Shown here piece after piece: positions 5,527 to 24,101 of a DNA stretch of 37,755 nucleotides (positions are counted from its first letter, which is position 1; each line of letters opens with the position of its first letter). A model generated the notes under the pieces. It was given only the letters and a program-made list of their open reading frames with translations. It did not search any database and had not been told where the DNA came from. The translations under genes were made by a program, and so were the position numbers. This stretch comes from a virus (Duplodnaviria; Caudoviricetes), in the IMG/VR virus record IMGVR_UViG_3300037467_000574, positions 1-37,755 of that record. One strand, 5' to 3'.

Positions 5527-5553
5527 TTGGTGTTGTTCTCGCTTTCTGGGGGA

Positions 5554-6684: not shown

Positions 6685-6699
6685 ATGGGCTTTCTCTCC

Positions 6700-6864
6700 T
6701 TACTTCCGTTTAGGCGGGGCGGGGCGCTTTTCCACGGCATCCGCGAAGTCGTCAAAGATACGACGGGCAATCTCTGCGATGCCCACGCCGCAGCGGGAAG
6801 CTTCGTCGTTAAGGGCCTTGAGTTGTCGCGGGGTCAGGGAAAAGGTCTTCTTGTCTAGCGCCAC
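6700..6864 (-). CDS. Ribbon-helix-helix (CopG/Arc-like) regulator, 54 aa, not in the ORF track
   Basis: My translation: MALDKKTFSLTPRQLKALNDEASRCGVGIAEIARRIFDDFADAVEKRPAPPKRK. Beta strand KTFSL, helix, G-turn, EIARR helix; GTG start with AAAGGAG RBS. Confidence 0.75.
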   Translation of the reverse strand: MALDKKTFSLTPRQLKALNDEASRCGVGIAEIARRIFDDFADAVEKRPAPPKRK

Positions 6865-6921
6865 AAGCTGGGCACTCCTTTCGAGGCGTGCGCGGTGCGT
6901 GGTGTACTGTGGATGTACTGG

Positions 6922-6950
6922 AGTGTACCGTACCCGCGCACGCCTGTCAA
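6922..6950 (-). promoter_or_regulatory. sigma70-type promoter TTGACA-N17-TACACT
   Basis: Consensus -35, 17-bp spacer, good -10; upstream of the RHH and recombinase genes. Confidence 0.8.
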
Positions 6951-6971
6951 GCGCCCCGGTACATTCCGTAC

Positions 6972-7544: not shown

Positions 7545-7567
7545 GGCCGCTCCTTTTCTGGGTTCCC

Positions 7568-7596
7568 ATTATACCGCATGTAAGGTAATGGGGCAA
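7568..7596 (-). promoter_or_regulatory. sigma70-type promoter TTGCCC-N17-TATAAT
   Basis: Perfect -10, 17-bp spacer, upstream of the Gam-like gene. Confidence 0.75.
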
Positions 7597-7601
7597 GCTC
7601 T

Positions 7602-7811
7602 CTAAGGTTCGCGCGTACCGGCCTTCCAGCCCCACCAGAACGACCGGAGTTCTTGGATGTACCCCATCCGCCACACCTCCTGGCCGCCGAAGAAGGCTTT
7701 AACGTGCCCGGTACGCTCTCCGAAGTACCTAAGCTCCCAGTTGCGTTCTCGCAAATGCAAGATGCACTCCTGGTTGTCTCGGCACCATTCTTCCCACTTG
7801 TGACGCAACAT
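7602..7811 (-). CDS. Trp-rich hypothetical protein
   Basis: TAATG coupling to the upstream gene; GGAG RBS. Confidence 0.6.
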   Translation of the reverse strand: MLRHKWEEWCRDNQECILHLRERNWELRYFGERTGHVKAFFGGQEVWRMGYIQELRSFWWGWKAGTREP

Positions 7812-8038
7812 TAACCTACTCCGTGCTCGCGCATTTCAAAACACGACATATGCGTGTGTTCTGTCTTGTCCGGGATATTCGGTCGGTTCAAGTAGTCCAG
7901 GTAACGCGACTTGTACTTTCGGTGCCAGTAGCGGCTCAAGACGTAACGAAAACCCTTGACGATAAGTTCGCCACAAATATCGCAGGGGTGTTCTTTAGCC
8001 GCTTTACGGAGGTCGTGCTGGCCTTCATCTAGGGTCAT
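7811..8038 (-). CDS. Small Zn-binding phage protein
   Basis: RKAAKEHPCDICGELIVKG..Y and C-terminal HMSC; GGAGG RBS. Confidence 0.7.
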   Translation of the reverse strand: MTLDEGQHDLRKAAKEHPCDICGELIVKGFRYVLSRYWHRKYKSRYLDYLNRPNIPDKTEHTHMSCFEMREHGVG

Positions 8039-8202
8039 TATTCCTCCAAGTCGAACACATCAAGCTCGAACTCCTTGAGTTGCTTCAACAGGTGTTCCTT
8101 GAGACCGTCGTCGCCCTCCTTTTCCTTGAGCCGTTCAACGGTCTCACGAAGGGCGTCGATGTTCGCCTGAATCTTGTCGAACACCGTAATCTCGTTACCC
8201 AC
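8038..8202 (-). CDS. Acidic coiled-coil protein, 54 aa, not in the ORF track
   Basis: MGNEITVFDKIQANIDALRETVERLKEKE...; AAGGAGG RBS; stop overlaps the next start. Confidence 0.7.
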   Translation of the reverse strand: MGNEITVFDKIQANIDALRETVERLKEKEGDDGLKEHLLKQLKEFELDVFDLEE

Positions 8203-8371
8203 GCTTTACCTCCTTGGGCCACGCTACGGCCCCTGTCTTGGTGTCCACCACTACAAGACGAAGCCCCGGCTTGCGGGCCAGGGCGTTGCGTCGGGATTGA
8301 ATCGCCTCATCGAGCGTTAACCCAGGCGAGGACCAGTAGACGTTGTGGTCCGCGAGTTTTACGCAGTACAT
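8195..8371 (-). CDS. Hypothetical protein (MYCVKLADHN...)
   Basis: AAGGAG RBS before the ATG at 8371. Confidence 0.65.
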   Translation of the reverse strand: MYCVKLADHNVYWSSPGLTLDEAIQSRRNALARKPGLRLVVVDTKTGAVAWPKEVKRG

Positions 8372-8379
8372 GAGGCTCC

Positions 8380-8586
8380 TTACCAGCGGTTGAACCGCAT
8401 AAAGTCGTAAACGTAGGCCGCGTCGTCTTTGACGAAGTACGAGCCTACAGTCTCTCCAGCGTCGTTCATTTCGAACACGATGCACCCACCGTACCAAATT
8501 TTGGTCAGCTTGGCCGTTCGGTCGTATTTGAACAGTTTGGCCTTGCTTACCGCGCGGAGTAGCGGCGGTACATCTTTTGGTGACAT
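8380..8586 (-). CDS. Hypothetical protein (MSPKDVPP...)
   Basis: GGAGG RBS and a promoter upstream. Confidence 0.65.
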   Translation of the reverse strand: MSPKDVPPLLRAVSKAKLFKYDRTAKLTKIWYGGCIVFEMNDAGETVGSYFVKDDAAYVYDFMRFNRW

Positions 8587-8620
8587 TAGCTGGGTAACCT
8601 CCGTTCTTTGACACCGGGAC

Positions 8621-8649
8621 ATCTTACCCCGATTAGGCCCCCAGCGCAA
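8621..8649 (-). promoter_or_regulatory. sigma70-type promoter TTGCGC-N17-TAAGAT
   Basis: 17-bp spacer; GG precedes the -10 as in the promoters at 468, 6922 and 7568. Confidence 0.6.
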
Positions 8650-8654
8650 GGGGT

Positions 8655-8873
8655 CTAGGAATCTTCTTCCTCGTTCGCGTCGGTCTCCTCGTCAGCGCCG
8701 ACCTCATCCGGGTTGCGCTCCTCCCAACGTTCGAGCACGTCGTTGTTGAAGTGCTCGCTAACCGCTTCGTAGACCCCGGGGACCATCAAGACGGCTTCCA
8801 TCCCCTGCTCCTCCATAATCTCAAGGAGGTGTTCGCGGAAGTCGTCGTTGGACATCTTGTCGTACTTACCCAT
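8655..8873 (-). CDS. Highly acidic small protein
   Basis: AGGAGG RBS before the ATG at 8873; D/E-rich C-terminus. Confidence 0.75.
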   Translation of the reverse strand: MGKYDKMSNDDFREHLLEIMEEQGMEAVLMVPGVYEAVSEHFNNDVLERWEERNPDEVGADEETDANEEEDS

Positions 8874-8883
8874 TGTAGACCTC

Positions 8884-9288
8884 CTAGTCTCGCTCGAACT
8901 CGGTAATACGGAGCTTGCGGGGACCGCCGCGTTGGTCGGCAAGGCGCTTAAGCTGGGCGTCCCAGCCTTTGTGTTCGCTCCAGCGGAGGTTAGGGCGCTG
9001 CGCACGTAACTTCTCCTTGAGCATCTTGAACTCCCAGTCGTCCAGTACGCCGGTGATATGAAGCTCGGAAGCCAGCATAATCTGGCCGTTGTACCAACCC
9101 CAGGCGTTAAGGAAGGCGCTTTGGCCGGTAGGGGTGTAGTTGAAGAAGTCGCTTAGAGCCGTCACGACCGCCTTGCGATGGTTCTCAAGGTCCACAACTT
9201 GCCGCATAGCCGCGTCCCGTTGACCAACCAAGATGTTTCGAGCATTGTTAATTTCACGGGCGAGGTTAAGGTCGTCATTGGCTTTCAT
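8884..9288 (-). CDS. Hypothetical protein
   Basis: AGGAGG RBS; tiles in the operon. Confidence 0.7.
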   Translation of the reverse strand: MKANDDLNLAREINNARNILVGQRDAAMRQVVDLENHRKAVVTALSDFFNYTPTGQSAFLNAWGWYNGQIMLASELHITGVLDDWEFKMLKEKLRAQRPNLRWSEHKGWDAQLKRLADQRGGPRKLRITEFERD

Positions 9289-9296
9289 ACGCCCTC

Positions 9297-9641
9297 CTAG
9301 TGGGGATGCTTGGCTTGTACCGTTTCGGCGTAGTTTACCACCGCCTCGTCCACGGCGGCGGACATCTGTAGCTGCTGCGCCGTTGTAGCCAGTTGGTGTG
9401 CAATCCGGCGTTGCTCGGCGATGTCGCGCCTGCGCAGGGCGACGGCCGCAGGCAAGAGGCGTTCGGCCAACGCGGCCTCCTCACCCACAGGCGGGTACAG
9501 CGCGCCCCAGGTAATGGCCTCGTTGAGCATCACGGCGCGCAGCTCGCCATCGGGGACGTTGTGGGCGATGTGGGACAGAATGTTGGAGTAGTCCCAGTCG
9601 GGACGCAGCCAGTCAGGCTTTCGGGGCACAGCGGGGTTCAT
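9297..9641 (-). CDS. Hypothetical protein
   Basis: ATGA overlap with the upstream gene. Confidence 0.7.
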   Translation of the reverse strand: MNPAVPRKPDWLRPDWDYSNILSHIAHNVPDGELRAVMLNEAITWGALYPPVGEEAALAERLLPAAVALRRRDIAEQRRIAHQLATTAQQLQMSAAVDEAVVNYAETVQAKHPH

Positions 9642-10012
9642 TCTTCTTCTCCTTCGAAGATGCTACCTTCCACGGCCAGTTCGAGGCCACGTCGGATGTA
9701 CTTGCAGAACTTGTCCCAGTCAGAGGTCACCGTGGTAGCCTTGCGCCCGTGGAACGCGTTGACCGAGCCACCGATGTCTCGGCCGAAGCTGGCGCACAGC
9801 CTTTCGGTGCTTACCCACGAGCACATGAACGCGGTATCCCCGGCGTCCAGGCTGACGAACCCCTTGAGTTTGCCAGCCCGGAGGGTCAGGTAGACCTCGC
9901 GGGGCCGGTCGATGTCCACTTCGGCGGTCGCTCCAACCTCTGCGGCCAACGCGCACAAGGTCTCCGACGCTTTCTTGCGGTCGTCGGCTCTGCTCAAGGC
10001 TTTGGGTTGCAT
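9638..10012 (-). CDS. Hypothetical protein (MQPKALS...)
   Basis: AGGAGG RBS before the ATG at 10012. Confidence 0.7.
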   Translation of the reverse strand: MQPKALSRADDRKKASETLCALAAEVGATAEVDIDRPREVYLTLRAGKLKGFVSLDAGDTAFMCSWVSTERLCASFGRDIGGSVNAFHGRKATTVTSDWDKFCKYIRRGLELAVEGSIFEGEEE

Positions 10013-12846: not shown

Positions 12847-13301
12847 TAGATTACAACTCCTTTCGGCAAGTTGAGGCGTCGGATAACGAATCGACGCACG
12901 TAAGCGGGGGGACGCGTGGGGAGCCAGCGAACTTGCTGACCTGGGCCATTGGGGTCGTCGATGACCATCCAGCGGGTACGTTCGGTGGGGTACTTCACCG
13001 GGAACACCGACTTAGACCCTAGCACGGCAATCCATTTGCCGTCAATAAGCCAAGCTCTGGCTTTGTCCAGGTCCCCAACCTGATAACCGGACTGGAAGAT
13101 GGCGGCGGTGTTCTTGTCGGGGTTGTACCCACTGTATGCGTAGATGTTCCAGCCGAAGTGCTCGAACTGACTCTTGGGGTCGGGAGCACGTTCGACAACC
13201 CACACGCTAGAGTTGCCGTAGCTGCTGCGCCAAGCATACAGCACGGCATCCACGATGTTGACGCGGTAGCCTCGGAAGGCCGAAGGCACAGGGTTACTCA
13301 T
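12846..13301 (-). CDS. Hypothetical aromatic-rich protein
   Basis: Tiles in the operon. Confidence 0.65.
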   Translation of the reverse strand: MSNPVPSAFRGYRVNIVDAVLYAWRSSYGNSSVWVVERAPDPKSQFEHFGWNIYAYSGYNPDKNTAAIFQSGYQVGDLDKARAWLIDGKWIAVLGSKSVFPVKYPTERTRWMVIDDPNGPGQQVRWLPTRPPAYVRRFVIRRLNLPKGVVI

Positions 13302-13914: not shown

Positions 13915-13930
13915 GCTCCTTTCGGGTAGC
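13915..13930 (-). repeat. Start-associated 16-mer GCTACCCGAAAGGAGC, copy 1
   Basis: Exact repeat containing the SD AAAGGAG. Confidence 0.95.
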
Positions 13931-13931
13931 T

Positions 13932-14273
13932 TTAGAGGCGGTTCGACTCCACGAAGTCGCCCCAGCAAGTAATCCAGATGTGACCGGTGTCAACCTTACG
14001 CATCAGCGTGGTAACGTACGGGTCACCGTGGTTGATGTATTCGGCAATACACTTGCCGTTCTTGTCGATGCCTTCGACGCCGCACCCTTCCGTAATCTCG
14101 TTAAGCGCGGTCATCAGGCGATACGGGTAGTCTGGCGGGTTGAAGCATTGGCGTTCCAACTCTTGCACCGACTTGTAATCGCGGGTCTTACGCTTCTTCG
14201 TGAGCAGTTCCCGCAACTCCTTCCCCTTGCCCGGGAAGGCTTCTTCCAGCCGTTTCTCGCTGGGCACGCCCAT
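13932..14273 (-). CDS. Hypothetical phage protein (MGVPSEK...YINHGDPY...WGDFVE)
   Basis: ATG at 14273 just downstream of copy 2. Confidence 0.8.
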   Translation of the reverse strand: MGVPSEKRLEEAFPGKGKELRELLTKKRKTRDYKSVQELERQCFNPPDYPYRLMTALNEITEGCGVEGIDKNGKCIAEYINHGDPYVTTLMRKVDTGHIWITCWGDFVESNRL

Positions 14274-14279
14274 TGTGTA

Positions 14280-14295
14280 GCTCCTTTCGGGTAGC
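14280..14295 (-). repeat. Start-associated 16-mer, copy 2
   Basis: Exact repeat; a degenerate GCTACCCCACAGGTGGC hairpin lies at 14307-14323. Confidence 0.95.
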
Positions 14296-14322
14296 TCGTA
14301 GACTTCGCCACCTGTGGGGTAG

Positions 14323-14808
14323 CTAGTCCTTGATGCGTTCGAGTTCGAAAGCTGGACGATGCCCGCCGGATTCGCTTCGAACGTCGATAACGTAGATAGT
14401 GTACTCGTCCTCACCCTCGAAGTCAACCGACTTGCGGTGAACGCGGGGCTGGATGAGACCCAGGCGCTTTAGCTCCCCAAACAGGTCTTTGTTGAGGTCG
14501 ATGTTGTACACGTCGCCCTTACGGCGGTCGTTGACCGTAAAGCCGTCCCGGGCGTTGCCCCACAGGTCGTACGACCACTCTTGGAACTTTGCCTCAGCCC
14601 GAGCTTTGACAGTCTTGTGCGCCTCTGCCCAGGCCGAAGCCTGGTTATCTGCGGTGCCGATGACTTCGAAGCTGCCATCGAAGGGCGGGCGCATCGGAAC
14701 CTGGGCCTCCCAGCGCCAGGTACGCTTGTTGTGGACGAGGCGGGCACCGGGGTAGACTTTGGCTACCGCAGCTTCGAACTCGGGCCCGGTGGTGGGAATC
14801 TTGCTCAT
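14323..14808 (-). CDS. Two-domain hypothetical protein (MSKIPTT...)
   Basis: TAATG coupling; N-domain shared with the 17387 and 18334 proteins; C-domain YDLWGN..DGFTVND. Confidence 0.7.
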   Translation of the reverse strand: MSKIPTTGPEFEAAVAKVYPGARLVHNKRTWRWEAQVPMRPPFDGSFEVIGTADNQASAWAEAHKTVKARAEAKFQEWSYDLWGNARDGFTVNDRRKGDVYNIDLNKDLFGELKRLGLIQPRVHRKSVDFEGEDEYTIYVIDVRSESGGHRPAFELERIKD

Positions 14809-15269
14809 TAGGCCATATCCCACGCCATACCCGCCTTGTAGTTCCGGATGCCGTTCTTGGCGTCGTCGTGGGTCTGAATCTGCAAGAACCAGATTTCCGT
14901 GCAACCGACGTTCGGCGCTCCGAAGTCCTGCAACGGGGCGAAGCAGGTTTCGTCCATCGGCCCGTAGTAGATGCCCGCGTAGGCGATACGCCCGTCATCG
15001 TCCACCAGGCGGAAGGGCTGGGGCTGGTACTCCAGCAAGATGGCCCCGGTGTTGGGCCCGACCGGCGACATCTGGCCCACGGCGTTGAGGTTGGTGCCCT
15101 GCGGCTCGAACCGCTCCGCGTTGTTGTCCTGCGTGATGACCCAGAAGTACCCGGTTTCGTGACGCGGCTTCTCGACGGCGCGGGCCAGCACACTCCAGTC
15201 ACCACCCAGCACGGTACCGGTAGGCAGGGAGTTGACCACCGACTTGATAGCGTCAAACAGGTTATCCAT
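14808..15269 (-). CDS. Hypothetical phage protein (MDNLFDA...FRLVDDDG...PLQDFGAPNVGC)
   Basis: ATG at 15269 just downstream of copy 3. Confidence 0.8.
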   Translation of the reverse strand: MDNLFDAIKSVVNSLPTGTVLGGDWSVLARAVEKPRHETGYFWVITQDNNAERFEPQGTNLNAVGQMSPVGPNTGAILLEYQPQPFRLVDDDGRIAYAGIYYGPMDETCFAPLQDFGAPNVGCTEIWFLQIQTHDDAKNGIRNYKAGMAWDMA

Positions 15270-15275
15270 TGTGTT

Positions 15276-15291
15276 GCTCCTTTCGGGTAGC
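15276..15291 (-). repeat. Start-associated 16-mer, copy 3
   Basis: Exact repeat. Confidence 0.95.
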
Positions 15292-15292
15292 A

Positions 15293-15895
15293 CTAGCAGG
15301 CTTCGGCGTTCAGCCAGCCCGTACGTTCGAGGTCGGCGCTAACCGCCTCTTGCATTTCCTTGAGGGCTTCGGCGGCTTTATCCTCCGCTTCCTGCTCCTC
15401 GCGTTGTTTTTCGTTGTACTCGCGTTCGTCCTCCGCGATGCGGTCGGCGAGCTTGTCCGCAGCCCACGCGGCCCGCTGGATGTCGGTGTAGACAGCCCGC
15501 GTGCTCAGTTCGCCAGCCATCTGGGAGGCCGTGTCATCGTTGCCCTCGCAGTAGGCCCAGCCGATGAGGAAGCCCCGCGACTTTGGCAGGCGGAACACCA
15601 GGCCCCGAATTTTCTGGTCCTCCTGGTCGTCGGTGAACCAGCCGGTGTGGTCGATGCCGACCCCGCGCACCCGGTCGCACCACTCCCAGCGCAACCCCGG
15701 CATAAAGTCGCTGCCGTGGTAGAAGAAGGCGTTAGGGGCGTTCGGCTCGGGGGCGACCTGGTAACCGCCCGTGTAGGCGTAGCGTTCCTTGCGGTCCTGC
15801 AAGGTACCCTTGGGCAGTTCCGGCAGGTAGCGCGGAAACGAGAAGCCCGCGAACTCGAATTTCGTTTCGAGTGGACGTTGACGGCCCTTAGGCAT
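15293..15895 (-). CDS. Hypothetical protein (MPKGRQR...) with acidic coiled-coil tail
   Basis: AAGGAG RBS; overlaps the upstream stop. Confidence 0.75.
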   Translation of the reverse strand: MPKGRQRPLETKFEFAGFSFPRYLPELPKGTLQDRKERYAYTGGYQVAPEPNAPNAFFYHGSDFMPGLRWEWCDRVRGVGIDHTGWFTDDQEDQKIRGLVFRLPKSRGFLIGWAYCEGNDDTASQMAGELSTRAVYTDIQRAAWAADKLADRIAEDEREYNEKQREEQEAEDKAAEALKEMQEAVSADLERTGWLNAEAC

Positions 15896-16334
15896 CTTCG
15901 GTCTCCTTGTCTGCTTCGGGGTCACCGTAGCTGCTCTCGATGGCCTTGTTGCAGTTGGAACACTGCTCGGTCGGGCCTTCGTCGTACGCTTGGGCCGCAA
16001 CGATGCGCGGCCAGTCCAAACCCCGCTTTGTGACCTGTTCGAACGCGCACTTGGCGCACAAGAACTCGCAGTCCTTGGCGACGTAAACCAGCGTACCGCC
16101 CCCGGGCCAGTAGTGGCTTTGGAAGCCGTCCACGGCACGGGGCGGGAACACCATCCGCTTGGGGTTCAACACGTCCTTGTGCGCGTAACCCACGCCCCAC
16201 GAAAGCTGGTGCGTCACATACGGCAGCAACGCCTTGATGTTGCCGTTCTTGTGCCAGAACGTGTGCATCGGGTACGGAAGCCAACCGGGCTTGACCGGAC
16301 GGGGGTACTTGCGCCCCTTGACTTTGATGTGCAT
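15888..16334 (-). CDS. Zn-binding hypothetical protein (WPGG...LCAKC...CSNC)
   Basis: ATG just downstream of copy 4; two CxxC pairs. Confidence 0.75.
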   Translation of the reverse strand: MHIKVKGRKYPRPVKPGWLPYPMHTFWHKNGNIKALLPYVTHQLSWGVGYAHKDVLNPKRMVFPPRAVDGFQSHYWPGGGTLVYVAKDCEFLCAKCAFEQVTKRGLDWPRIVAAQAYDEGPTEQCSNCNKAIESSYGDPEADKETEDA

Positions 16335-16338
16335 CCTA

Positions 16339-16354
16339 GCTCCTTTCGGGTAGC
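16339..16354 (-). repeat. Start-associated 16-mer, copy 4
   Basis: Exact repeat. Confidence 0.95.
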
Positions 16355-16362
16355 TTTAACGT

Positions 16363-16489
16363 GCGTAAAGGGTGCTGCCTCACTTCTTCCGCCACCACGG
16401 CCCGGTCCAGACTGATGTGGTGGTTAAACGGGTTGGGCGCATACCGGGCGTCCCCGGCTCTGCCCCAACAGAGGCAGCACCTTTTACGC
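16363..16489. ncRNA. Candidate structured RNA: three-way junction closed by a 19-bp stem
   Basis: Inverted repeat 16363-16381/16471-16489 (18 of 19 Watson-Crick) enclosing two further hairpins; intergenic. Confidence 0.55.
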
Positions 16490-16512
16490 CCGTCGTTAGA
16501 CGAGCGCGGTCG

Positions 16513-16722
16513 TTAGACCTTCCGCGTGGTGTAGCGGTCCTTGATGTGGCTGGCGAAGTAGCTGCCGACGCTTTCGGCGTCCATCATCGCCTCGTACTCG
16601 GAGAACGGCACGTCATCGTACTCGTACGTCGAACCCTTCTTGAACTTGACGCGCAGCTTCTTGGCGTCCTGGTCGTACCCGACCGCCTCGATGTTGCTGG
16701 ACACCACGGTTTGCAGTTGCAC
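16513..16722 (-). CDS. KTSC domain protein
   Basis: VSSNIEAVGYD...LRVKFKKGSTYEYDDVP..Y..MM.AESVGSYF..HIK is the canonical KTSC pattern; AAGGAGG RBS. Confidence 0.92.
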   Translation of the reverse strand: MQLQTVVSSNIEAVGYDQDAKKLRVKFKKGSTYEYDDVPFSEYEAMMDAESVGSYFASHIKDRYTTRKV

Positions 16723-16735
16723 CTTTGTTACCTCC

Positions 16736-17131
16736 TTAGTAATCGTCGTCGTAGCGTTCCCCGGCGTCGAGGTAGTCTACATCCCGGGCCAAGCAACGGA
16801 CCTGTTGGCCGCTGCTGTTGTAGATGGCGTTGCACTTGTCGCAGACGTTGTCCATCGGGTCGTACAGTTCGACCTCCGCGCCGCAGCCACAGCGCAGTAC
16901 CGCCGGAACCATCCAACTCCAGCGGTGCGGCTCCAACCGGGGCTTTACGCCCATACGACGAACCCGGCTGTAGTTTCGCCGGGCCGCACGGGGCATCTTC
17001 TGGACGTTGACCTTGCCCTCACGGTTACAGGGGAACCAGTACCCGGCACCGCGTTCGGGGTCGGTGTCGTAGCACAGGTGGTACTCCACCCGCTCCTCCC
17101 TACGACGGGGGCTGATGATGTTGTCCCGCAT
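16736..17131 (-). CDS. Zn-ribbon hypothetical protein
   Basis: CGCG...CDKC; GGAGG RBS. Confidence 0.75.
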   Translation of the reverse strand: MRDNIISPRRREERVEYHLCYDTDPERGAGYWFPCNREGKVNVQKMPRAARRNYSRVRRMGVKPRLEPHRWSWMVPAVLRCGCGAEVELYDPMDNVCDKCNAIYNSSGQQVRCLARDVDYLDAGERYDDDY

Positions 17132-17385
17132 TAGCGTTGCACCTCCACGAACACCCCATCGACGTAGTACCCGCCGAGACCGTTAGCGAGGGCGAGGTTA
17201 CGTGCCGCGCCTTTGGCCTCGGCCGTAAACCAGTGAGCCGAGCAGGGCACGCCGTTGTGCAGCACGCGAGCTTCCCGGCGGTCGCCAGGCTGCTTAGTCG
17301 TGTCCACGTCCACGCGCTTTAGGGGCACCGTACCGCCGAATGTGGGGTCGTCGGTCGGTGCGTTGATGTCGTAACGGTACGTCAC
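17131..17385 (-). CDS. Hypothetical protein
   Basis: Tiles in the operon; TAATG coupling. Confidence 0.7.
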   Translation of the reverse strand: MTYRYDINAPTDDPTFGGTVPLKRVDVDTTKQPGDRREARVLHNGVPCSAHWFTAEAKGAARNLALANGLGGYYVDGVFVEVQR

Positions 17386-17386
17386 G

Positions 17387-18058
17387 TTAGCGGGCCTTGC
17401 GACGGTTCATCTGGCGGGACTTGGCGGCCAGCTTGTTCTTGTGGCGGCGGTGGGCCTTGACTTTGGGCGGGACGTTGCGGACGTTGTTGTAGGTCTGGGG
17501 TTCGGGCTCGGCCTTGCTCGTACCCAGGTCGGCAGGGGTCAGGACCCGGCCGTAGTCCAGCAGGCCCATCGACCGCGCGGCGCGTTCGGACGGCTTACCC
17601 GCCAACAACGGCTTTCGGGCCTCCTTCGGTTCCATCATCACCCCCTTGTCCGCGCGGACCTGCTCCAAGCGGCGGGCGAAGCCGTCATCACGTTGGATGT
17701 TGAGTTCGACCTTGTTGGGGTCGTCGGTGGTGTGGACCGTGAGCTTGTCCCCGGCGTTGAGCGTCAACGGGCCGTCCACGGGGACGAACGTGGTGGTGTT
17801 GCCTTCGCGTTCGAGGGTGACCGCGTGGACCTCCTTGGGCTTGTTGTGCTCCATCACGCCGAAGCGGGCCGGGTCGGCCTCGGCGGTCTTGAGGGCGCGG
17901 GACCAGGCCCCGGCGGCGTTCTTGGCCTCGCCCAACACGGTGCCGTTCATCAACTCAACCCGGTAGGTGTCGTCGATGAGGAGGTTCTTGGTCACGACCA
18001 ACTTGGCGTCGGCGAAGTGCGCCGTCACGAGGGCCTTGGGGGACAGCTTCTCGGTCAT
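17387..18058 (-). CDS. Hypothetical protein with C-terminal Arg/Lys-rich helix
   Basis: ATG downstream of copy 5; ends KAHRRHKNKLAAKSRQMNRRKAR. Confidence 0.8.
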   Translation of the reverse strand: MTEKLSPKALVTAHFADAKLVVTKNLLIDDTYRVELMNGTVLGEAKNAAGAWSRALKTAEADPARFGVMEHNKPKEVHAVTLEREGNTTTFVPVDGPLTLNAGDKLTVHTTDDPNKVELNIQRDDGFARRLEQVRADKGVMMEPKEARKPLLAGKPSERAARSMGLLDYGRVLTPADLGTSKAEPEPQTYNNVRNVPPKVKAHRRHKNKLAAKSRQMNRRKAR

Positions 18059-18067
18059 TGTTCGGTT

Positions 18068-18083
18068 GCTCCTTTCGGGTAGC
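18068..18083 (-). repeat. Start-associated 16-mer, copy 5
   Basis: Exact repeat. Confidence 0.95.
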
Positions 18084-18092
18084 GTCTGACGT

Positions 18093-18300
18093 TGTGCTAG
18101 GGTAGCACATTGTAAGGCCCGGCGAAAGAACGGCCGCCAGGCCCTACGGTGTGATACCTAAGGGTTAAGAGTTGTTGTGTCTGGTGCAACGCCTGGACGG
18201 CGTTAGCTGTCGCCTCCGCGTTTAACGGGTTTGGAGGTCTTATCACATCCCGTCACGTCACGCCGGTACGTTCGGCCGTAGCTTACGCCCTACGGTGGCG
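18093..18300 (-). ncRNA. Candidate multi-hairpin intergenic RNA
   Basis: 250-nt gap without a credible ORF containing at least six stems; G-U wobbles fit the minus strand. Confidence 0.45.
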
Positions 18301-18333
18301 TTGTCGGTATGCCGTTCACTGTAACGTTCCCTT

Positions 18334-18804
18334 CTACTTGTCGGCCGAGCCTTCGGCCTTCTTGACGGCCACGAGGGCCGCGTCCCACGCGTCCGCTTCG
18401 GTGGCACCCTCGCCGAGCAGGAACGTTAGCGCGGTGTCGTCCACGCGCCAGCCGGTGTCGCTCTGCGAGGCCACAGCGGACGGGATGACCTTCAGGACGG
18501 CCTCTTTCGGGCTGTCCTTGTCGGCCAACTCCTCCACGTATTCGTACCCCCGGATGCTTACCAGGAACATGTTTTGCATCACGTTCGAGGAGCTATGCGC
18601 GCCGTCGGCGTTGAGCGCGATGGCCGCACCCCGGAAGTATTCGAGGGCGACAATGTGCATAGCCGCCTTCGACTTGGGGTAGTACGACGGGTTCTTGCGT
18701 ACCATCGTCACGAAGGCCCGCGCCAGCCGTTGCCGGATGGGCAGGCTGGTGTCGTTCTCCGCGTTGGGGTACTGGGGTTTGGGCGCTTTGGGCTTGGTTG
18801 CCAT
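18334..18804 (-). CDS. Two-domain hypothetical protein
   Basis: GGAGG RBS; TAATG coupling. Confidence 0.75.
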   Translation of the reverse strand: MATKPKAPKPQYPNAENDTSLPIRQRLARAFVTMVRKNPSYYPKSKAAMHIVALEYFRGAAIALNADGAHSSSNVMQNMFLVSIRGYEYVEELADKDSPKEAVLKVIPSAVASQSDTGWRVDDTALTFLLGEGATEADAWDAALVAVKKAEGSADK

Positions 18805-19040
18805 TACCGATGTCCTCCGTACTTGTGCAGTTGGGCTTTAGCCCAGGCGAGGCCGCTTTGTGCCACGGCCAAGGCTCTACCGGCGTCGAACAGCCGGGAC
18901 CAGGGCGCGTGGCACATCTGGAAGTCGAGGGTAACCCACTTGTGGTGCTGTTGGGCCTTCTCGTGGGCGCGTTCGGCTCGGTCGTGCTCCACCACGGCCT
19001 TGCAGCGTTGGTGGAGGGTGGGCGCGTCGTTCCGGCGCAT
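18804..19040 (-). CDS. Hypothetical protein
   Basis: AAGGAGG RBS. Confidence 0.7.
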   Translation of the reverse strand: MRRNDAPTLHQRCKAVVEHDRAERAHEKAQQHHKWVTLDFQMCHAPWSRLFDAGRALAVAQSGLAWAKAQLHKYGGHR

Positions 19041-19402
19041 TAGTCCTCCTTGCGCACGGCGAAGACGAACTCCTTGACGTACTCCAAGGCTTCTTCCACC
19101 TCGGAGTCCGTGACGGCGTTGACGTACGCCTTGCCCGGGTTGACGGTGTACGCGACGATGTCCCCGTTTTCGACGGTGACGCGCACGACGTTCTCGTCGT
19201 CCGAGTGGTAGGTGAAGCCGGGGTCGGCCTTGTCGATGACGTAGCGGTGACCGGCCGTGGCGAACAGGTACGTCGGGTTGGGCGCGGTGTAGTTGGCCGC
19301 GTTGGTGGCGACGATGGGCGCGTACTGGGGTTGCGTGGCAGCGCAGCCCGTGAGGCCCATCACCAGCATCAGCAGGGCCAGGTGTTGGCGGTAGTTACGC
19401 AT
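19040..19402 (-). CDS. Lipoprotein with Ig-like beta domain
   Basis: Signal peptide with lipobox LTG-C at residue 20; FTYHSDDENVVRVT...PGKAYV resembles a Big_2 pattern. Confidence 0.7.
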   Translation of the reverse strand: MRNYRQHLALLMLVMGLTGCAATQPQYAPIVATNAANYTAPNPTYLFATAGHRYVIDKADPGFTYHSDDENVVRVTVENGDIVAYTVNPGKAYVNAVTDSEVEEALEYVKEFVFAVRKED

Positions 19403-19416
19403 CTTTCGAATCTCCT

Positions 19417-19770
19417 CTAGTCCTTCAGGTGGACGTGGTTGCCGTTCGCATCGAAGAAGGCGACGTTGCGGACGCCGTCCTCGTGCTGCTTGAAGTAGTC
19501 GTAGCGGCCTTCGGGACGGTCGCTGCGGGCGTCGTGGTACATTTCCACGTACCAGTTCTCGTCCACGTCGCTTTCGCGCTCCTTGGTGCCCTGGTCGTAG
19601 GGCTGGCCCTTCTTGATGGGGTAGTTATGCGCGGTGGCGACCTTTCCGCTGAAGGTCATCCCCTTGTACCCGCACACGACGGTCAGCGGCTTTGCTTCGA
19701 CCTGGTGCTGGTACACCGCGTTGGGGTGCTTGGAGTCGTTGACGAAGGTGGCCTTGTGTTCGGTGTTCAT
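19417..19770 (-). CDS. Hypothetical protein
   Basis: AGGAG RBS. Confidence 0.75.
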   Translation of the reverse strand: MNTEHKATFVNDSKHPNAVYQHQVEAKPLTVVCGYKGMTFSGKVATAHNYPIKKGQPYDQGTKERESDVDENWYVEMYHDARSDRPEGRYDYFKQHEDGVRNVAFFDANGNHVHLKD

Positions 19771-19782
19771 TGCAGCGTTCTC

Positions 19783-20034
19783 CTACTTGCTCCAGGCCGT
19801 CACGCTCGCGTACTTGCCCACGAGGGGCATCGGGAAGGTTTCGTGCCACTTGTCCGCGTTGCCGCGCAGTTCACGGGCGATGTTGGCGATGTCATCCACC
19901 TGCGCGTCCGTGAGGGGCACGGCACACTGGACCAGCACTTCCAAGCCCTTGCCGTTGGCGAACGGGCGCTGGTAGCTGTACGTGCCGTTGTAGGCGGGCG
20001 CGTTGACGCGCTGGACCGGTTGGGTCGTGTTCAT
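19783..20034 (-). CDS. Hypothetical protein (MNTTQPV...)
   Basis: ATG at 20034 just downstream of copy 6. Confidence 0.75.
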   Translation of the reverse strand: MNTTQPVQRVNAPAYNGTYSYQRPFANGKGLEVLVQCAVPLTDAQVDDIANIARELRGNADKWHETFPMPLVGKYASVTAWSK

Positions 20035-20040
20035 AAGGTT

Positions 20041-20056
20041 GCTCCTTTCGGGTAGC
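20041..20056 (-). repeat. Start-associated 16-mer, copy 6
   Basis: Exact repeat. Confidence 0.95.
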
Positions 20057-20132
20057 CAAAGATAGCACAATGAGGCCCACCCCCGCCGTAGTAGGGGATG
20101 AGCCCGATGTGCTTTCTACATAACCCACCTCC

Positions 20133-20435
20133 TTACGGTAGCGGGTAAGGTTCGGCGCGGTTGACCGAGCGCCAAGTCTTTTGGTGCTTGTCCCACCACT
20201 TCTTGTTGCGACGGCGTACGCGCTCTTGCAGTTCGCGGCGCAACATCCGGCGAAGGTACTGGTTGCGACGTTGGGGATGCAACGCGGCTTCGTACCGGTA
20301 GTAGAACAGGTCTTCGACCCATTGCGGCACCGGGCGCTGGTAGCACCATTCGAGCTTTTGAGCCCGAGCGGCCCGCCACATCAGGTACCAGGCGTGCCGG
20401 GCGAACCGGTCATCGGTGGTAGCTTTGCGAGTCAT
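20133..20435 (-). CDS. Arg/Trp-rich basic protein (MTRKATT...)
   Basis: CCGAAAGGA RBS upstream (partial copy of the element). Confidence 0.65.
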   Translation of the reverse strand: MTRKATTDDRFARHAWYLMWRAARAQKLEWCYQRPVPQWVEDLFYYRYEAALHPQRRNQYLRRMLRRELQERVRRRNKKWWDKHQKTWRSVNRAEPYPLP

Positions 20436-20553
20436 ACCAACGTCCTTTCGGCCCACGGCCACAGGTCCAGCAAGGCGCAAGCCTGGTCGAAGATGCTATC
20501 GGCGCGTTGCTGGACGCGTATTATCCCGATGAAGGTGGGGTTCACGGTCGCAC

Positions 20554-20685
20554 CTACACTTTCTGCGTGACAACGTGCAGCGGGGCGGCCTTGCACTCGT
20601 CACACCCGCAATCCCACACGGGGATGGTGTTGTCGAATTGGCGCAAGCAGACGCGCTTGTCCCAGATGGTTTGCCAAGCTTCCAT
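20554..20685 (-). CDS. 43-aa Cys-rich peptide (MEAWQTIW...CGCDEC)
   Basis: ATG just downstream of copy 7. Confidence 0.65.
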   Translation of the reverse strand: MEAWQTIWDKRVCLRQFDNTIPVWDCGCDECKAAPLHVVTQKV

Positions 20686-20692
20686 CGTTGTA

Positions 20693-20708
20693 GCTCCTTT
20701 CGGGTAGC
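20693..20708 (-). repeat. Start-associated 16-mer, copy 7
   Basis: Exact repeat. Confidence 0.95.
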
Positions 20709-20725
20709 TTTGTGGGTTACATACG

Positions 20726-20776
20726 ACCTGTGGCGGGAATCGAACCTGCACGGCTTGCGCCGCTGCCTACACAGGC
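20726..20776 (-). ncRNA. Minimal tRNA-like RNA (acceptor stem and T-arm, no D or anticodon arm)
   Basis: GCCUGUG UAGGCAG CGGC-GCAA-GCCG U GCAGG-UUCGAUU-CCCGC CACAGGU: 7-bp acceptor, U8-A9, GGUUCGAUUCC T-loop consensus. Confidence 0.65.
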
Positions 20777-20828
20777 ACGGACGTAGCTGGTTGCCACGCC
20801 GTTCTACGGGTTTGTGCGGTAAACAGCA

Positions 20829-20860
20829 CAAGAAAGCCCCCCGGCAAGTACCGAGGGGCT
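20829..20860 (-). terminator. Rho-independent terminator
   Basis: AGCCCCUCGG-UACUUG-CCGGGGGGCU followed by UUCUU, 20 nt after the 20879 stop. Confidence 0.7.
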
Positions 20861-20878: not shown

Positions 20879-21385
20879 TTAGGTGGCGGCGTACCAGTCG
20901 CCGGGCCGCCGGAACGCATCCGGGGTACGCTCCTTGACCGTGACGCTATAGCTTTGGGTGGCGATGGGCCGACCCTTGCTATCCGTCCCGGTGATGTGCC
21001 CGGCGCGGACCTTTACGGCCTTCGTCGGCGCGGAGTACGGGCGAGGCACACGCGCCGTTTTGAGGTCGTTGTGGTACTCGCGCTGGCGACGTTGGTTGTC
21101 GCGGTTGCGTTCCCAAGTAGTCACACCGGTAGCTTTGAGGGGGCGCAGACGGTTGGGGTTCTTGCCCGCCTCCTTGTGCGCCTTGCACCGCGCGTTGAAG
21201 CTCTCCGCGCTTTCGTCTGTTAGACGTTGGGCGCTGGAGCCGAGGTAGCAAACGGCCTCAACGTCCTTTTGCCAGTTGGTACGCGCGGACAGGTCGGGTA
21301 GACCTTCCCACTTTCGTACTTCTGCACGTTCCGCGCTTTGGACCTGCTTTCGCGCCTTGTTCCGCGCCTTATCACGGGCCCGCAT
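20879..21385 (-). CDS. Very basic, Arg-rich early protein
   Basis: 168 aa, TAATG-coupled; N-terminus MRARDKARNKARKQVQSAERAEVRKW. Confidence 0.75.
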   Translation of the reverse strand: MRARDKARNKARKQVQSAERAEVRKWEGLPDLSARTNWQKDVEAVCYLGSSAQRLTDESAESFNARCKAHKEAGKNPNRLRPLKATGVTTWERNRDNQRRQREYHNDLKTARVPRPYSAPTKAVKVRAGHITGTDSKGRPIATQSYSVTVKERTPDAFRRPGDWYAAT

Positions 21386-21585
21386 TAGTACGCCACCACG
21401 GACAGCTTCCAGCCGGCGGGGTACTCACGGTAGTTACCGGAGTTGTGGGCTTGAACCAGAGTCTCGGCAAATTCCGCATTACGGATGTTGGTCACCACCT
21501 CGAAGGTGGGGCCGATGGTCTTGCCGAAGGCCGTCAGTTGGCCCATCACGGCGTAGGCTATGCCGGATTCGGGGTACTTGTGCAT
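21385..21585 (-). CDS. First gene of the leftward arm, hypothetical
   Basis: AAGGAGG RBS. Confidence 0.75.
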   Translation of the reverse strand: MHKYPESGIAYAVMGQLTAFGKTIGPTFEVVTNIRNAEFAETLVQAHNSGNYREYPAGWKLSVVAY

Positions 21586-21613
21586 TGTAACCTCCTTGCG
21601 GTAAGGTGACTGT

Positions 21614-21643
21614 AACTTAACATTTGTTAACCTTCTGTGGCAA
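21614..21643 (-). promoter_or_regulatory. Leftward early promoter TTGCCA-N18-TAAGTT with extended -10 TG
   Basis: Lies immediately upstream of the first leftward gene and its RBS. Confidence 0.6.
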
Positions 21644-22116
21644 CCCGTGGTTACCAGTCCGGGGTTAGAGTCACCTTGGTAGGGTACTCTAGTCCCGGCC
21701 CGGTTAGGGGCAGGGGTGGCGGGTACGGTTAGCAGTAACCGCCTAACTTGCTTCGACCTCCGCTAGCCTGCTTACCGGCTTGGTTGCGGGGTCCCGGCCC
21801 GGGTGGACTTACTATCGTCTGCCTCTGGGCCGTTATGCGGCATAGTGCCTCACATCCACCGGCAGGGCCCGCTTAGGGGGCGCAAGGGCCGTATCAGTTA
21901 CCCGCTAGGCTCAACGCTCGCCGCCTGGTGGTGTCGGGTAGGCTTGCGCCCGTCCCTAACCGAACCCCGGTACTACCCGGGACCAGTGAGATTGCCTAGC
22001 AGCCGTAACCCGGCCGCCTGGTGAATCAGGAACTATGCGGTTGTCAAGGTGCCGTGCGGGCCGGTGGCCTACACTGTACCGCTTCATCCCGTCCCCCCGG
22101 CTCGCTCGCTTGTGTT

Positions 22117-22239
22117 CTCTCTGCTGGTATCGGGTCGGGACCGTCAACGGCCAGAGTAGCACCCGGCGAGTCTGCCGGTTGGGTACCGCGCCGTGCTCTC
22201 TGCTGGTATCAGGCTTGCGCCGTCAACGGCCAGAGTAGC
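22117..22239. repeat. Two 44-bp direct repeats with a variable 9-bp core
   Basis: CTCTCTGCTGGTATC-N9-CCGTCAACGGCCAGAGTAGC at 22117-22160 and 22196-22239. Confidence 0.9.
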
Positions 22240-22829
22240 GGCCGGGGTACCGGGGGATGAAGTTGGGAAGGTGCTAACCGGAGTTGTGTAGGCGGTCTGG
22301 TCGCGGGCCCTATTGGGTGGTGGGCGGTGACCTCGTCGCCATCGACAAACACATTATGCCCACAACTCCGAAAAACTTGCCACCCCGAAACAACATTCTC
22401 GAAGCCGGAAACGACGCAACCACGTTAACGACGTTGCCCGTAGAAAACTCGTTTCGCCCGTCCCGCCTCGCTTCCCGGCGATTACCGAAAATTGGGTAAA
22501 AAAGTTTTTGGGCAAGCGGTACAGAAAACCCGGAAACCAAGTGGTAATCAGGTGATCCCGCCTGTACCCGAATCCCGGTACTACCCGGGGTGGGTCCGGC
22601 TGGCACACAGCAAACGCGCGCGATTATATAGGGGGTAGGTCCGGTCACCCCCGGCCGGTCCCCCGGGCCTGCTAGCGGGCCTGCTAGCTGGCAAGGATGA
22701 CCGGTCCCGGTGGGCCCGTCCCCCGTCCCCCTGCTACCAGGTGGGATATGTAGGTAACTACATAGGGGTAGCTCGGATGGGGTGGCGATCGCCAGAACAC
22801 AGGCAGGACGCGCGCTAGCGAGCAGGCAG

Positions 22830-22943
22830 ACCCGCAAGCTCGCCCGGTGGGCTGGATACCGGTAAGTGGGTACACACCCGGATACCATCGAACCCGCAAG
22901 CTCGCCTGTGACCTACGTCTGCGGGTACCCGTGCCCGCAAGCT
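22830..22943. repeat. Three CCCGCAAGCT direct repeats
   Basis: ACCCGCAAGCTCGCC at 22830 and 22892; CCCGCAAGCT at 22934. Confidence 0.8.
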
Positions 22944-23180
22944 GGCGCGCTGCCTGTGTCTGCGGGCCTGCCGGGTACCTGGTACCCACCGGCCGGTATG
23001 ACATGCCGCCGACGTGCCCGCCGGGGGTAGGCCACCCCCACTACGGCAGGCGCAGCCCCGGTCGGCGCGGGTATCCCGCAACCGATTCGCGCATAGTTTT
23101 TCATATAGTCGTCCCGTCGCCCGGGTACAGGCTAATTGTGGCCGTTAGACGTGTCGATAGCGTGTACCCAGAATTGGGGA

Positions 23181-23674
23181 TAGGACTTAGTTTTTCGAGC
23201 AGTTTGGGGCTATAAGCTGTTTTCGAGGTTTTTATGATGTCAATCCGCTTCGTCGTGATGTCATGTTCCTAGTTGGAAAACGGTGATTCTACTGTGTTTC
23301 AGCATTTGGATAGGACTTTTTCGTGTCGTTTCTGGGTCACTCCTAACTGGAAACAGGCTCTAAAAGCCAATCTACAGGTAAAATAGGACTTTAGGACTTC
23401 CGACAACTTTTCCCTATAGAGATTCTACGTGACGTGACGAGAGCAGAGAGCTGTACCTACCGTGGGTGACTCACAACTCAAGTCGGTTTCTTCCTATACG
23501 CGAGAAAAAGTCAGAATTTAGTCCTAAAGTCCTATTCTCTAGCCAGTTACTTGGTTTCAGGCTAGGACTTTATATATATAGTGTCCTACCCTTCCTATCC
23601 TTATTATTATAGGCTGTTTTCGGGGTAGGACAGACGAAATAATGCGGGTTTGAGCCCTCCCACGGGGATAGGAC
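23181..23674. repeat. AT-rich array of TAGGAC hexamers; candidate packaging (cos/pac) site or replication origin
   Basis: Ten exact copies in both orientations; perfect 17-bp inverted repeat at 23382-23398/23520-23536. Confidence 0.8.
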
Positions 23675-24044
23675 ACAGCCGTAGCGCCTGTCTACAGACT
23701 TCAGGTACACGTATTTTGACGGTGCAATGCGGTTCTACAGGCGTGAGGTGCCCCTGGAAACGCATATACGATTCCGAAACGACCGCCTGCAAGGTACCCA
23801 TTTTGAGTTAAAGCTCGAGATTTTACGCTAAAAACGGTACTCTGCAGCTTACCCAAACCCGGGTACTCAATTTCGGGTACAAAAATTTTCTGCTCCGCAG
23901 GTTGGCCCATTGGTTGTACCGCATTTCTGTTACTTAGGTGCTAGGGATTCGACCTCTACGACGGGGGCGCGAGGGGTGCGCCGCGACCGCCCGGGGCAAG
24001 TTGTGGCAGAATGGCATAAGTTACCAAATGTAACAAAATTCAGG

Positions 24045-24074
24045 TTGACACGCGTGCGTGCGCGCGGGTACATT
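24045..24074 (+). promoter_or_regulatory. sigma70-type promoter TTGACA-N18-TACATT
   Basis: Directly upstream of the AAGGAG RBS and the ATG at 24102. Confidence 0.7.
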
Positions 24075-24101
24075 AGATGGCGAAGTCCTCAAGGAGCCGT
24101 T

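What the first reader, a model, noticed from the sequence alone, without database searches (positions are those of the whole stretch)
13915..20708. Seven identical 16-nt SD-sequestering hairpins head selected early genes
Seen: GCTACCCGAAAGGAGC (minus strand) occurs exactly at 13915, 14280, 15276, 16339, 18068, 20041 and 20693. Each copy lies 4-9 nt before a start codon and contains the SD AAAGGAG. As RNA it folds GCU/AGC plus CC/GG, with either a bulged A and a CGAAA loop or an AC bulge and a GAAA tetraloop. The flanking pair is A-U in four copies, U-A in one (covariation) and mismatched in two. Partial copies occur at about 12857, 20444 and 14307-14323. Established: cluster K mycobacteriophages have start-associated sequences, and the MS2 operator is a bulged-A hairpin over an RBS. 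Inference: a translational operator or regulon for a phage RNA-binding protein, since far more than the SD is invariant.
Basis: partly seen in the sequence, partly recalled or inferred. Interest (0 to 1): 0.8.

Follow-up and report, generated by a model that had tools for sequence, protein, structure and literature searches.

The report
Bulged hairpin over phage ribosome sites
An uncultured soil phage puts the same 16-letter word over the ribosome-binding site of seven early genes, and three more genes carry altered versions that keep the same predicted hairpin, which likely marks these messages for joint control by a still unidentified RNA-binding protein.

Summary
In detail: 7 exact copies on the minus strand, each 4-9 nt before a start codon. 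Three more gene starts (21585, 20435, 12846) carry variants with a different bulge and compensatory stem changes. All ten fit: 3 or more base pairs, a 2-3-nt bulge, then CC-GNRA-GG (null mean 0.4). This favours an RNA hairpin with a GNRA tetraloop over the MS2-like bulged-A register. The exact word heads 7 of 7 early-operon genes that start after a gap over 20 nt. The hairpin is weak and does not make these sites harder to open than other starts, so it would repress only if a ligand binds. No reader was identified. The best-placed candidate is an Arg/Lys-rich protein of a small unnamed family, encoded behind the promoter-proximal variant. No multi-copy relative was reachable. It is a start-associated sequence (SAS) of the kind described in Cluster K mycobacteriophages, with shape evidence added. 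The scan noted similar elements on other phage DNA. Operator about 45%; ligand-free standard leader spread by copying about 27%.

The parts
20693..20708 (-). Exact copy, before gene 20685-20554 (43 aa)
20041..20056 (-). Exact copy, before gene 20034-19783; the hairpin is poorly populated here in context (lower-stem probability 0.0-0.4)
18068..18083 (-). Exact copy, before gene 18058-17387 (223 aa, basic C-terminal tail)
16339..16354 (-). Exact copy, before gene 16334-15888
15276..15291 (-). Exact copy, starting 1 nt after the upstream stop codon, before gene 15269-14808
14280..14295 (-). Exact copy, before gene 14273-13932
13915..13930 (-). Exact copy, starting 1 nt after the upstream stop codon, before gene 13907-13506 (GTG start)
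21590..21607 (-). Variant: 4-bp lower stem with the outer core pair G-C changed to C-G, UA bulge, GCAA loop; heads the first gene of the early operon (21585)
12854..12873 (-). Variant: 5-bp lower stem with G-C changed to A-U, UG bulge, GAAA loop; inside the last codons of gene 13301-12846, heads gene 12846. The MFE closes the stem with an 8-nt loop and leaves the upper two pairs open
20441..20457 (-). Variant: 3-bp lower stem with two swapped pairs, 3-nt bulge, GAAA loop; inside a doubtful 37-codon ORF, heads gene 20435. Not the MFE fold locally
20116..20149 (-). Degenerate variant (1-nt bulge, GUAA loop that holds the upstream stop codon, first core pair broken) within a -13.8 kcal/mol hairpin, followed by ATG-TAG
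21614..21643 (-). Promoter-like site (TTGCCA, 18 nt, extended -10 TG-n-TAAGTT); read by eye, not listed by the promoter scan
   Evidence: sequence; absent
21385..21585 (-). 66-aa first gene, no family
20879..21385 (-). 168-aa Arg/Lys-rich protein (22% K+R), coupled to 21585 by a TAATG overlap; 7 full relatives, no named family; candidate reader
20835..20860 (-). Intrinsic-terminator-like hairpin (11 pairs, imperfect U tract) between the Arg-rich gene and all seven exact copies
20801..20812 (-). Second shared element AACCCGTWDAAC, copy 1 (104 nt before the 20708 copy)
18220..18231 (-). Second shared element, copy 2 (148 nt before the 18083 copy)
16423..16434 (-). Second shared element, copy 3 (80 nt before the 16354 copy), inside a very stable fold
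16360..16490 (-). Non-coding multibranch RNA fold, z -6.9 against shuffles, ending just before an exact copy; no Rfam match
14307..14323 (-). Lone 5' half (GCTACCC) overlapping the upstream stop codon, locked in its own 6-bp hairpin
18093..18109 (-). Lone 5' half inside a 7-bp hairpin, 23 nt before an exact copy

Best explanation
The word is a start-associated element that is predicted to fold into a small bulged GNRA hairpin over the Shine-Dalgarno sequence, and it likely acts as a protein-read translational operator that would switch the whole early accessory operon at the level of translation. Shown: the copies, their place before start codons, their presence at every long-gap gene of the operon, and the pair-keeping variants. 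Computed: the hairpin alone is too weak to block the ribosome. Inferred: free ribosomes initiate at these cistron heads early in infection; a basic protein then accumulates, clamps the hairpin and shuts them, and the coupled genes behind each head fall silent with it. Also inferred: the variant at the start of the transcript makes the loop autoregulatory, with the Arg-rich 168-aa protein as the best-placed but unproven reader; and copying or recombination between sites helps keep the seven copies identical.
For: 7 identical copies include a 5' half that has no role in pairing with 16S rRNA. The descriptor hits 11 minus-strand sites and 1 plus-strand site, against a null mean of 0.4 and maximum of 3; 10 of the 11 are at gene starts. 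The three variants change 4 lower-stem pairs, all on both sides, and break none. The chance of a stem of 3 bp or more at each is 0.047, 0.031 and 0.068, a product of about 1e-4. In other phage records 1 of 35 comparable CC-GNRA-GGA starts has the lower stem, and that record was fetched because it holds the word. The exact word heads 7 of 7 genes with gaps over 20 nt between 20685 and 8873, but 0 of 5 long-gap genes further down, and there is no copy on the late (+) strand. So it marks one operon, not all de novo starts. Marginal stability fits a ligand-stabilised switch. The Arg-rich protein has a conserved basic core in 8 sequences and sits behind the promoter-proximal variant.
Against: No protein in the window has a recognised repressor fold. 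The Arg-rich protein has no Pfam, PHROG, Atlas or PDB match, and its model is poor (pTM 0.30). The bulge differs in all three variants, so it is either not read by sequence or those sites bind differently. The upper part (CGAAAGGA) is a common ribosome-site context in GC-rich phages, and 35 of 120 single metagenome matches lie before a start. The alignment-level covariation test is modest: 3 double-change cells (2 of 500 shuffles) and a score reached by 25 of 500, with one variant out of register. Copies share flanks up to 22 nt, so identity may reflect copying and not selection. All support comes from one genome. Two of the three variants are not the local MFE fold.
Confidence: 0.45

Rival explanations
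1. A ligand-free standard leader. The weak local hairpin keeps a strong Shine-Dalgarno sequence out of long-range pairing in a 62% GC message and opens easily, so genes that cannot be translationally coupled still initiate. Short-repeat recombination or leader duplication spreads it and lets gene blocks be exchanged, as PeSLs do in T4-type phages.
For: The net opening cost of the 5' half is about zero. Variants keep the shape but not the bulge. Sub-families of copies share 19-22 nt. Two copies start 1 nt after a stop codon, and two lone 5' halves look like duplication scars. An earlier AI note read a similar element this way (a lead only).
Against: 0 of 5 long-gap genes outside the operon and no late gene use it. 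There are no copies with 1-3 mismatches, which drift should produce unless homogenisation is recent. There is no promoter in the repeat, unlike PeSLs.
Confidence: 0.27
2. A cleavage or processing site for a structure-specific endoribonuclease that cuts in or next to the Shine-Dalgarno sequence and inactivates or separates early cistrons, as T4 RegB does.
For: GGAG is in 9 of 10 sites. RegB cuts GGAG in the initiation regions of early genes (PMC3014915, passages). Long structured leaders and a tRNA-like piece suggest a processed transcript.
Against: The RegB 3' consensus is matched at only 1-3 of 7 positions in the exact copies. The same review says secondary structure protects GGAG from RegB. 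No RNase family was found among the scanned proteins, though the record is likely incomplete.
Confidence: 0.1
3. A DNA site (stoperator-like) bound by a phage repressor that blocks transcription at gene junctions.
For: Perfect identity, one orientation and an intergenic position resemble Cluster A stoperators as described in PMC4351075 (passage).
Against: The variants change both ends in a complementary way and change bulge length, which a double-stranded DNA reader would not require. The spacing to start codons is fixed at 4-9 nt. The DNA hairpin is only -1.0 kcal/mol.
Confidence: 0.08
4. A boxB-like antitermination signal read by the Arg-rich protein in the manner of lambda N.
For: The layout is promoter-like site, GNRA hairpin, basic protein gene, terminator, downstream early genes. 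Lambda N is an arginine-rich-motif protein that binds boxB (PMC2724277, passages).
Against: The seven exact copies lie downstream of the only strong terminator-like hairpin, and the next listed minus-strand one with a long stem is at 8284. No boxA with fewer than 2 mismatches lies near any site. It does not explain the overlap with the ribosome site. It could still apply to the 21607 variant alone.
Confidence: 0.07

Closest known systems
Start-associated sequences (SAS) and extended SAS of Cluster K mycobacteriophages (PMC3203893; passages read) and Cluster EF Microbacterium phages (PMC7302621; passages read)
   Same: A short asymmetric repeat that holds the Shine-Dalgarno core a few nt before start codons; one orientation; non-structural genes only; tied to longer intergenic gaps; complementary outer ends; a second upstream element at some sites; function unknown.
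   Different: Different sequence; 16-18 nt instead of 13; 7 exact copies in this partial record against 11-19 in Cluster K. Natural variants here keep a bulged GNRA hairpin, whereas the passages read give no RNA structure for SAS and argue against hairpins for the ESAS inverted repeats. The upstream element here is a single 12-mer 80-150 nt away, not an adjacent inverted repeat.
Levivirus (MS2-type) replicase operator hairpin (PMC3561173; passages read)
   Same: A hairpin of about 20 nt over the initiation region with unpaired stem bases, proposed to repress when a protein binds.
   Different: The MS2 operator is a single site around the start codon itself, read by coat protein through a loop A four nt before the start codon and one unpaired purine. 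Here there are about ten sites, the start codon is outside the hairpin, the conserved register has a 2-3-nt variable bulge and a GNRA loop, and the phage is a tailed dsDNA phage.
T4 RegA and RegB post-transcriptional control (PMC3014915; passages read)
   Same: Phage-wide control of many early messages at the ribosome-binding site.
   Different: RegA sites lack conserved sequence or structure. RegB needs an unstructured GGAG with an A-rich 3' consensus that is not met here. No homolog of either was found.
PeSL cassettes of T4-type phages (PMC2839356; passages read)
   Same: Repeated leaders ending in a Shine-Dalgarno sequence and start codon that border small accessory ORFs and could recombine.
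   Different: PeSLs contain a sigma-70 promoter and a terminator-like stem-loop. This repeat has neither and is only 16-22 nt.
Lambda nut site and N protein (PMC2724277; passages read)
   Same: A small GNRA-type hairpin and an arginine-rich protein gene ahead of a terminator.
   Different: No boxA; most copies lie downstream of the terminator and on ribosome sites; no sequence similarity to N was detected.

Membership tests
Start-associated sequence (SAS), descriptive class | Short repeat, conserved beyond what pairing with 16S rRNA needs, containing the SD core | tested here: met
   16 nt identical in 7 copies, AAGGAG inside
Start-associated sequence (SAS), descriptive class | A few nt before start codons, in one orientation | tested here: met
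   4-9 nt, 7 of 7 on the minus strand
Start-associated sequence (SAS), descriptive class | Restricted to non-structural genes and tied to larger intergenic gaps | tested here: met
   none on the structural strand; gaps of 23-275 nt (4 of 7 exceed the 50 bp named for Cluster K)
Cluster K SAS proper | The Cluster K 13-bp consensus | tested here: not met
   Direct comparison with the consensus quoted: only the AGGAG core and outer complementarity are shared
Cluster K extended SAS | Pair of imperfect 17-bp inverted repeats just upstream | tested here: not met
   no such pair listed; instead a 12-mer in 3 leaders
Start-associated sequence (SAS), descriptive class | Conserved across related phages | tested here: inconclusive
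   No DNA of a close relative was reachable; distant records lack it
MS2-type operator | Single unpaired purine in the stem, start codon within the hairpin | tested here: not met
   the bulged-A register is broken in the variants; start codons lie 4-9 nt beyond the word
MS2-type operator | Specific protein binding represses translation | not testable with these tools
   Needs binding and reporter assays
T4 RegB target | GGAG followed by the A-rich consensus RAYARAA | tested here: not met
   1-3 of 7 positions in the exact copies (5 of 7 at the 21606 variant)
Lambda-type nut site | boxA close upstream of the hairpin | tested here: not met
   only 2-mismatch look-alikes, at 3 of 10 sites
Lambda-type nut site | Site lies between promoter and terminator | tested here: inconclusive
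   True for the 21607 variant only; the promoter was read by eye
PeSL cassette | Contains a sigma-70 promoter and a stem-loop terminator | tested here: not met
   no promoter-like site at any copy
PeSL cassette | Recombination between copies yields mini-circles | tested here: inconclusive
   no joints in contigs of one run, but contigs drop rare forms

The most novel reading that the evidence does not exclude
A small, unnamed family of arginine-rich phage proteins reads a bulged GNRA hairpin in two ways: at the first copy it controls its own synthesis and passage through the terminator, and at the seven identical copies it gates translation of every independent cistron of the early operon. This would be an N-like protein acting as master of a translational regulon, and a mechanism for start-associated sequences.
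Probability: 0.12. Interest if true: 0.8.

Novelty: new variant of a known kind. Interest (0 to 1): 0.45.

Why it matters
The papers I read leave the role of start-associated sequences open, and 3 literature searches bearing on it listed no title or abstract opening that settles it. Here natural compensatory variants say which shape to mutate, the operon layout says which genes should respond, and a candidate reader sits behind the first site, so the question becomes a simple reporter experiment. A 16-nt operator with a small cognate protein would also be a compact tool for translational control. The limits are one uncultured genome, an unknown host and no identified reader.

Tried and rejected
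Multi-copy relatives by the exact word: 4 single-copy loci in viral contigs. A version with a free bulge gave 118 single-match viral loci from 37 of 64 parts, with an AC bulge in 2 of 118. None of these loci shared a protein with 49 minus-strand genes of the window (full flanks were held for only 80 of the 120 metagenome loci). Relatives by protein: terminase none; capsid relatives in viral contigs only up to 40% identical; capsid in genome contigs none; Arg-rich family none with DNA. 35 records searched for CCGAAAGGAG held at most 2 copies each. A search of 16 of them for repeated 11-mers before starts found no equivalent hairpin family; one record, G011, repeats an unstructured 11-mer 5 times. 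Three Casjensviridae early regions that share one or two proteins gave promoter-type or tandem repeats, not this word. An antisense RNA against the word: longest complement 9 nt, rejected. Rfam and ARAGORN found nothing relevant. The CsrA-type consensus (recalled motif) is absent from 7 of 7 exact copies and present at the 21606 variant. KTSC protein 16722-16513: the domain is confirmed and called RNA-binding in one passage (PMC7824862), but its gene has no hairpin and nothing links it to the word. The fold search of the Arg-rich model found no match, on a low-confidence model. No RNA holder was listed. No complex prediction was sent, as that tool does not take RNA.
Full report
Setting. The window is a whole virus record of 37,755 nt, 61.6% GC. 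It carries terminase, portal, scaffold, capsid and sheath genes on the plus strand. On the minus strand it carries two helicases, a Gam-like gene and about 40 small genes, mostly of no family. It is probably a partial genome of a contractile-tailed phage (inference from the sheath genes and the missing baseplate and fibre genes). The only run that holds it is labelled soil metagenome and may be its source. The host is unknown. The gene calls used below are mine, chosen by Shine-Dalgarno match and overlap, and are not verified.

Observation. The word occurs exactly 7 times, on the minus strand, at the stated places, with no site at 1-3 mismatches on either strand (shuffles mean 0.48). One contig covers 11000-24500 without differences or joints between copies.

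The family is larger than seven and is defined by shape. I listed all CC-GNRA-GG cores: 28 on the minus strand and 11 on the plus strand. With a 2-3-nt 5' bulge and at least 3 Watson-Crick pairs below it, 11 minus and 1 plus remain; 200 Markov controls give a mean of 0.4 and a maximum of 3. Ten of the 11 sit at gene starts: the 7 exact copies and variants before genes 21585, 20435 and 12846. The eleventh (7167) and the plus hit (28577) are inside genes. Of the other 17 minus-strand cores, none has the stem; two of them have a chance downstream start that is not an annotated gene. The variants change four lower-stem pairs, each on both sides, and change the bulge every time, while the two upper C-G pairs and the GNRA loop stay. 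Two variants lie inside upstream coding sequence. The chance of a stem of 3 bp or more, given the 3' side, is 0.047, 0.031 and 0.068. In 60 stretches of 16 other phage records plus 3 annotated stretches, 1 of 35 comparable starts has the stem, and that record was chosen for holding the word. The alignment test is more modest: 3 double-change cells (2 of 500 shuffles) and a covariation score reached by 25 of 500, with the 20457 variant one column out of register and a fourth, degenerate variant included. The tetraloop register keeps both upper pairs in 11 of 11 rows. The bulged-A register loses its extra pair in 3 rows and has a gap in one, although it is the slightly better fold of the exact word itself.

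Placement. Between 20685 and 8873, all 7 genes that start more than 20 nt after the previous stop have the exact word, and none of the 26 genes with gaps of 14 nt or less has it. The second half is partly circular, because the word and its spacer need about 20 nt; the first half is not. Five long-gap genes further down, some behind their own promoter-like sites, and all late genes lack it. So the word heads each independently initiated block of one operon, and most other genes abut or overlap the gene before. Upstream lie a promoter-like site read by eye (21643-21614; not listed), the 21607 variant, a 66-aa gene, the coupled Arg-rich gene and a terminator-like hairpin at 20860-20835. The three longest leaders share a second 12-mer, with 10 of 12 columns identical; 1 of 300 controls reached that (the regions were chosen after I saw the match).

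Strength of the hairpin. Alone it is -2.7 kcal/mol. In context the lower stem forms with probability about 0.75-0.95 at most copies, but poorly at 20056 and in one window at 15291. Opening the ribosome footprint costs 6.8-7.0 kcal/mol on average at the 7 sites against 7.6-8.5 at 24 other starts (p 0.39 and 0.20), and replacing the 5-nt 5' half by random bases changes this by +0.14 and -0.05. So the hairpin is not predicted to be a standing block. It is either a switch that needs a ligand or a neutral, tidy leader.

Candidates for a reader. The 168-aa protein is 22% Lys+Arg. A profile search of 1.84 billion representatives gave 9 hits: the 4 inputs, 4 new proteins of similar length and one 4034-aa repetitive protein that I left out. 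The 8 aligned sequences share a basic core. There is no Pfam, PHROG, Atlas or PDB match, and the model is mostly isolated helices with pTM 0.30. An extended basic helix would suit an arginine-rich RNA-binding motif (established for lambda N), but this is resemblance only. The 66-aa protein gave only sub-threshold leads. The KTSC domain is real.

Elsewhere. I found no second genome with several copies, and no DNA of a close relative. Closer capsid relatives exist as proteins only. Single copies are common as ordinary ribosome sites in GC-rich DNA. Conservation across phages is therefore untested.

Mechanism. I commit to a translational operator (0.45). Identity beyond the Shine-Dalgarno core, conserved shape, marginal stability and restriction to one operon together fit a site that a protein clamps shut. 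The main rival is a ligand-free leader spread by copying (0.27). It is supported by shared flanks of up to 22 nt and the free bulge in the variants, and I took its wording from an earlier AI note. The RNase site, DNA site and antitermination signal are less likely, for the reasons listed under rivals.

Comparison and novelty. It meets the descriptive features of a start-associated sequence but is not the Cluster K or EF sequence (PMC3203893 and PMC7302621, passages only; their supplementary alignments were not read and may bear on structure). It works, if the best reading holds, like a multi-site version of a levivirus operator (PMC3561173, passages) but fails that family's features. PMC3014915, PMC2839356, PMC4351075, PMC2724277 and PMC7824862 were also read as passages only. 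Eight literature searches were answered; I saw listings and abstract openings, and none showed this word or a mechanism for SAS. The library lacks most subscription papers. Earlier notes of this scan describe similar start-associated hairpins in at least 7 other genomes and none for this genome or sequence; they are unchecked leads. Verdict: real, a new variant of a known but unexplained kind, interest 0.45.

Noticed in passing
window 20726-20776 (-): A tRNA-like piece: a 7-bp acceptor-type stem, a GG-containing linker, a GNRA hairpin and a T-loop (TTCGATT) arm, ending 17 nt before the first exact copy. Not called by ARAGORN or Rfam and not unusually stable (z -0.5). It could be a processing signal.
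   Followed up: partly
window 16360-16490 (-): A very stable non-coding multibranch fold (z -6.9) right after the KTSC gene; no Rfam match. A candidate small RNA or leader.
   Followed up: partly
window 18085-18333 (-): A 250-nt intergenic stretch with several hairpins (z -2.05), including a 14-bp stem.
   Followed up: partly
window 20116-20135 (-): A strong Shine-Dalgarno sequence overlapping a stop codon is followed by ATG-TAG, a start-stop mini-ORF or a collapsed gene.
   Followed up: partly
window 21600-24100: About 2.4 kb without convincing genes between the divergent early and late arms, with a 53-nt direct repeat (22114, 22193), a 33-nt repeat (21949, 22557), a 40-nt inverted repeat (22797-22959) and an AT-rich part. 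A possible origin or packaging region.
   Followed up: no
window 6862-6897 (-): The 54-aa gene 6864-6700 has a different -10 kcal/mol hairpin over its ribosome site. The protein looks like a ribbon-helix-helix type by eye (recalled resemblance; no family hit).
   Followed up: no
window 5554-6684 (-): A 376-aa protein with no family hit, next to a Gam-like gene. Its N-terminal part recalls Rad52/Sak single-strand annealing proteins (from memory, untested), which could promote recombination between short repeats.
   Followed up: no
L342 (G011) 5440-9779 (-): A distant capsid relative repeats an unstructured word around CGAAAGGA before five clustered gene starts: its own SAS-like element.
   Followed up: partly
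L007 6421-16622: Aeromonas phage AhMtk13b repeats a promoter-type cassette of 36-60 nt five to six times across its early region.
   Followed up: no
window 15293-15895 and 13932-14273 (-): Two early proteins are about 45% identical to early proteins of Casjensviridae phages (AH2, BcepNazgul, Aeromonas phages), whereas the capsid resembles Streptomyces phage Kromp and Ralstonia phages at about 30%: a mosaic genome.
   Followed up: partly
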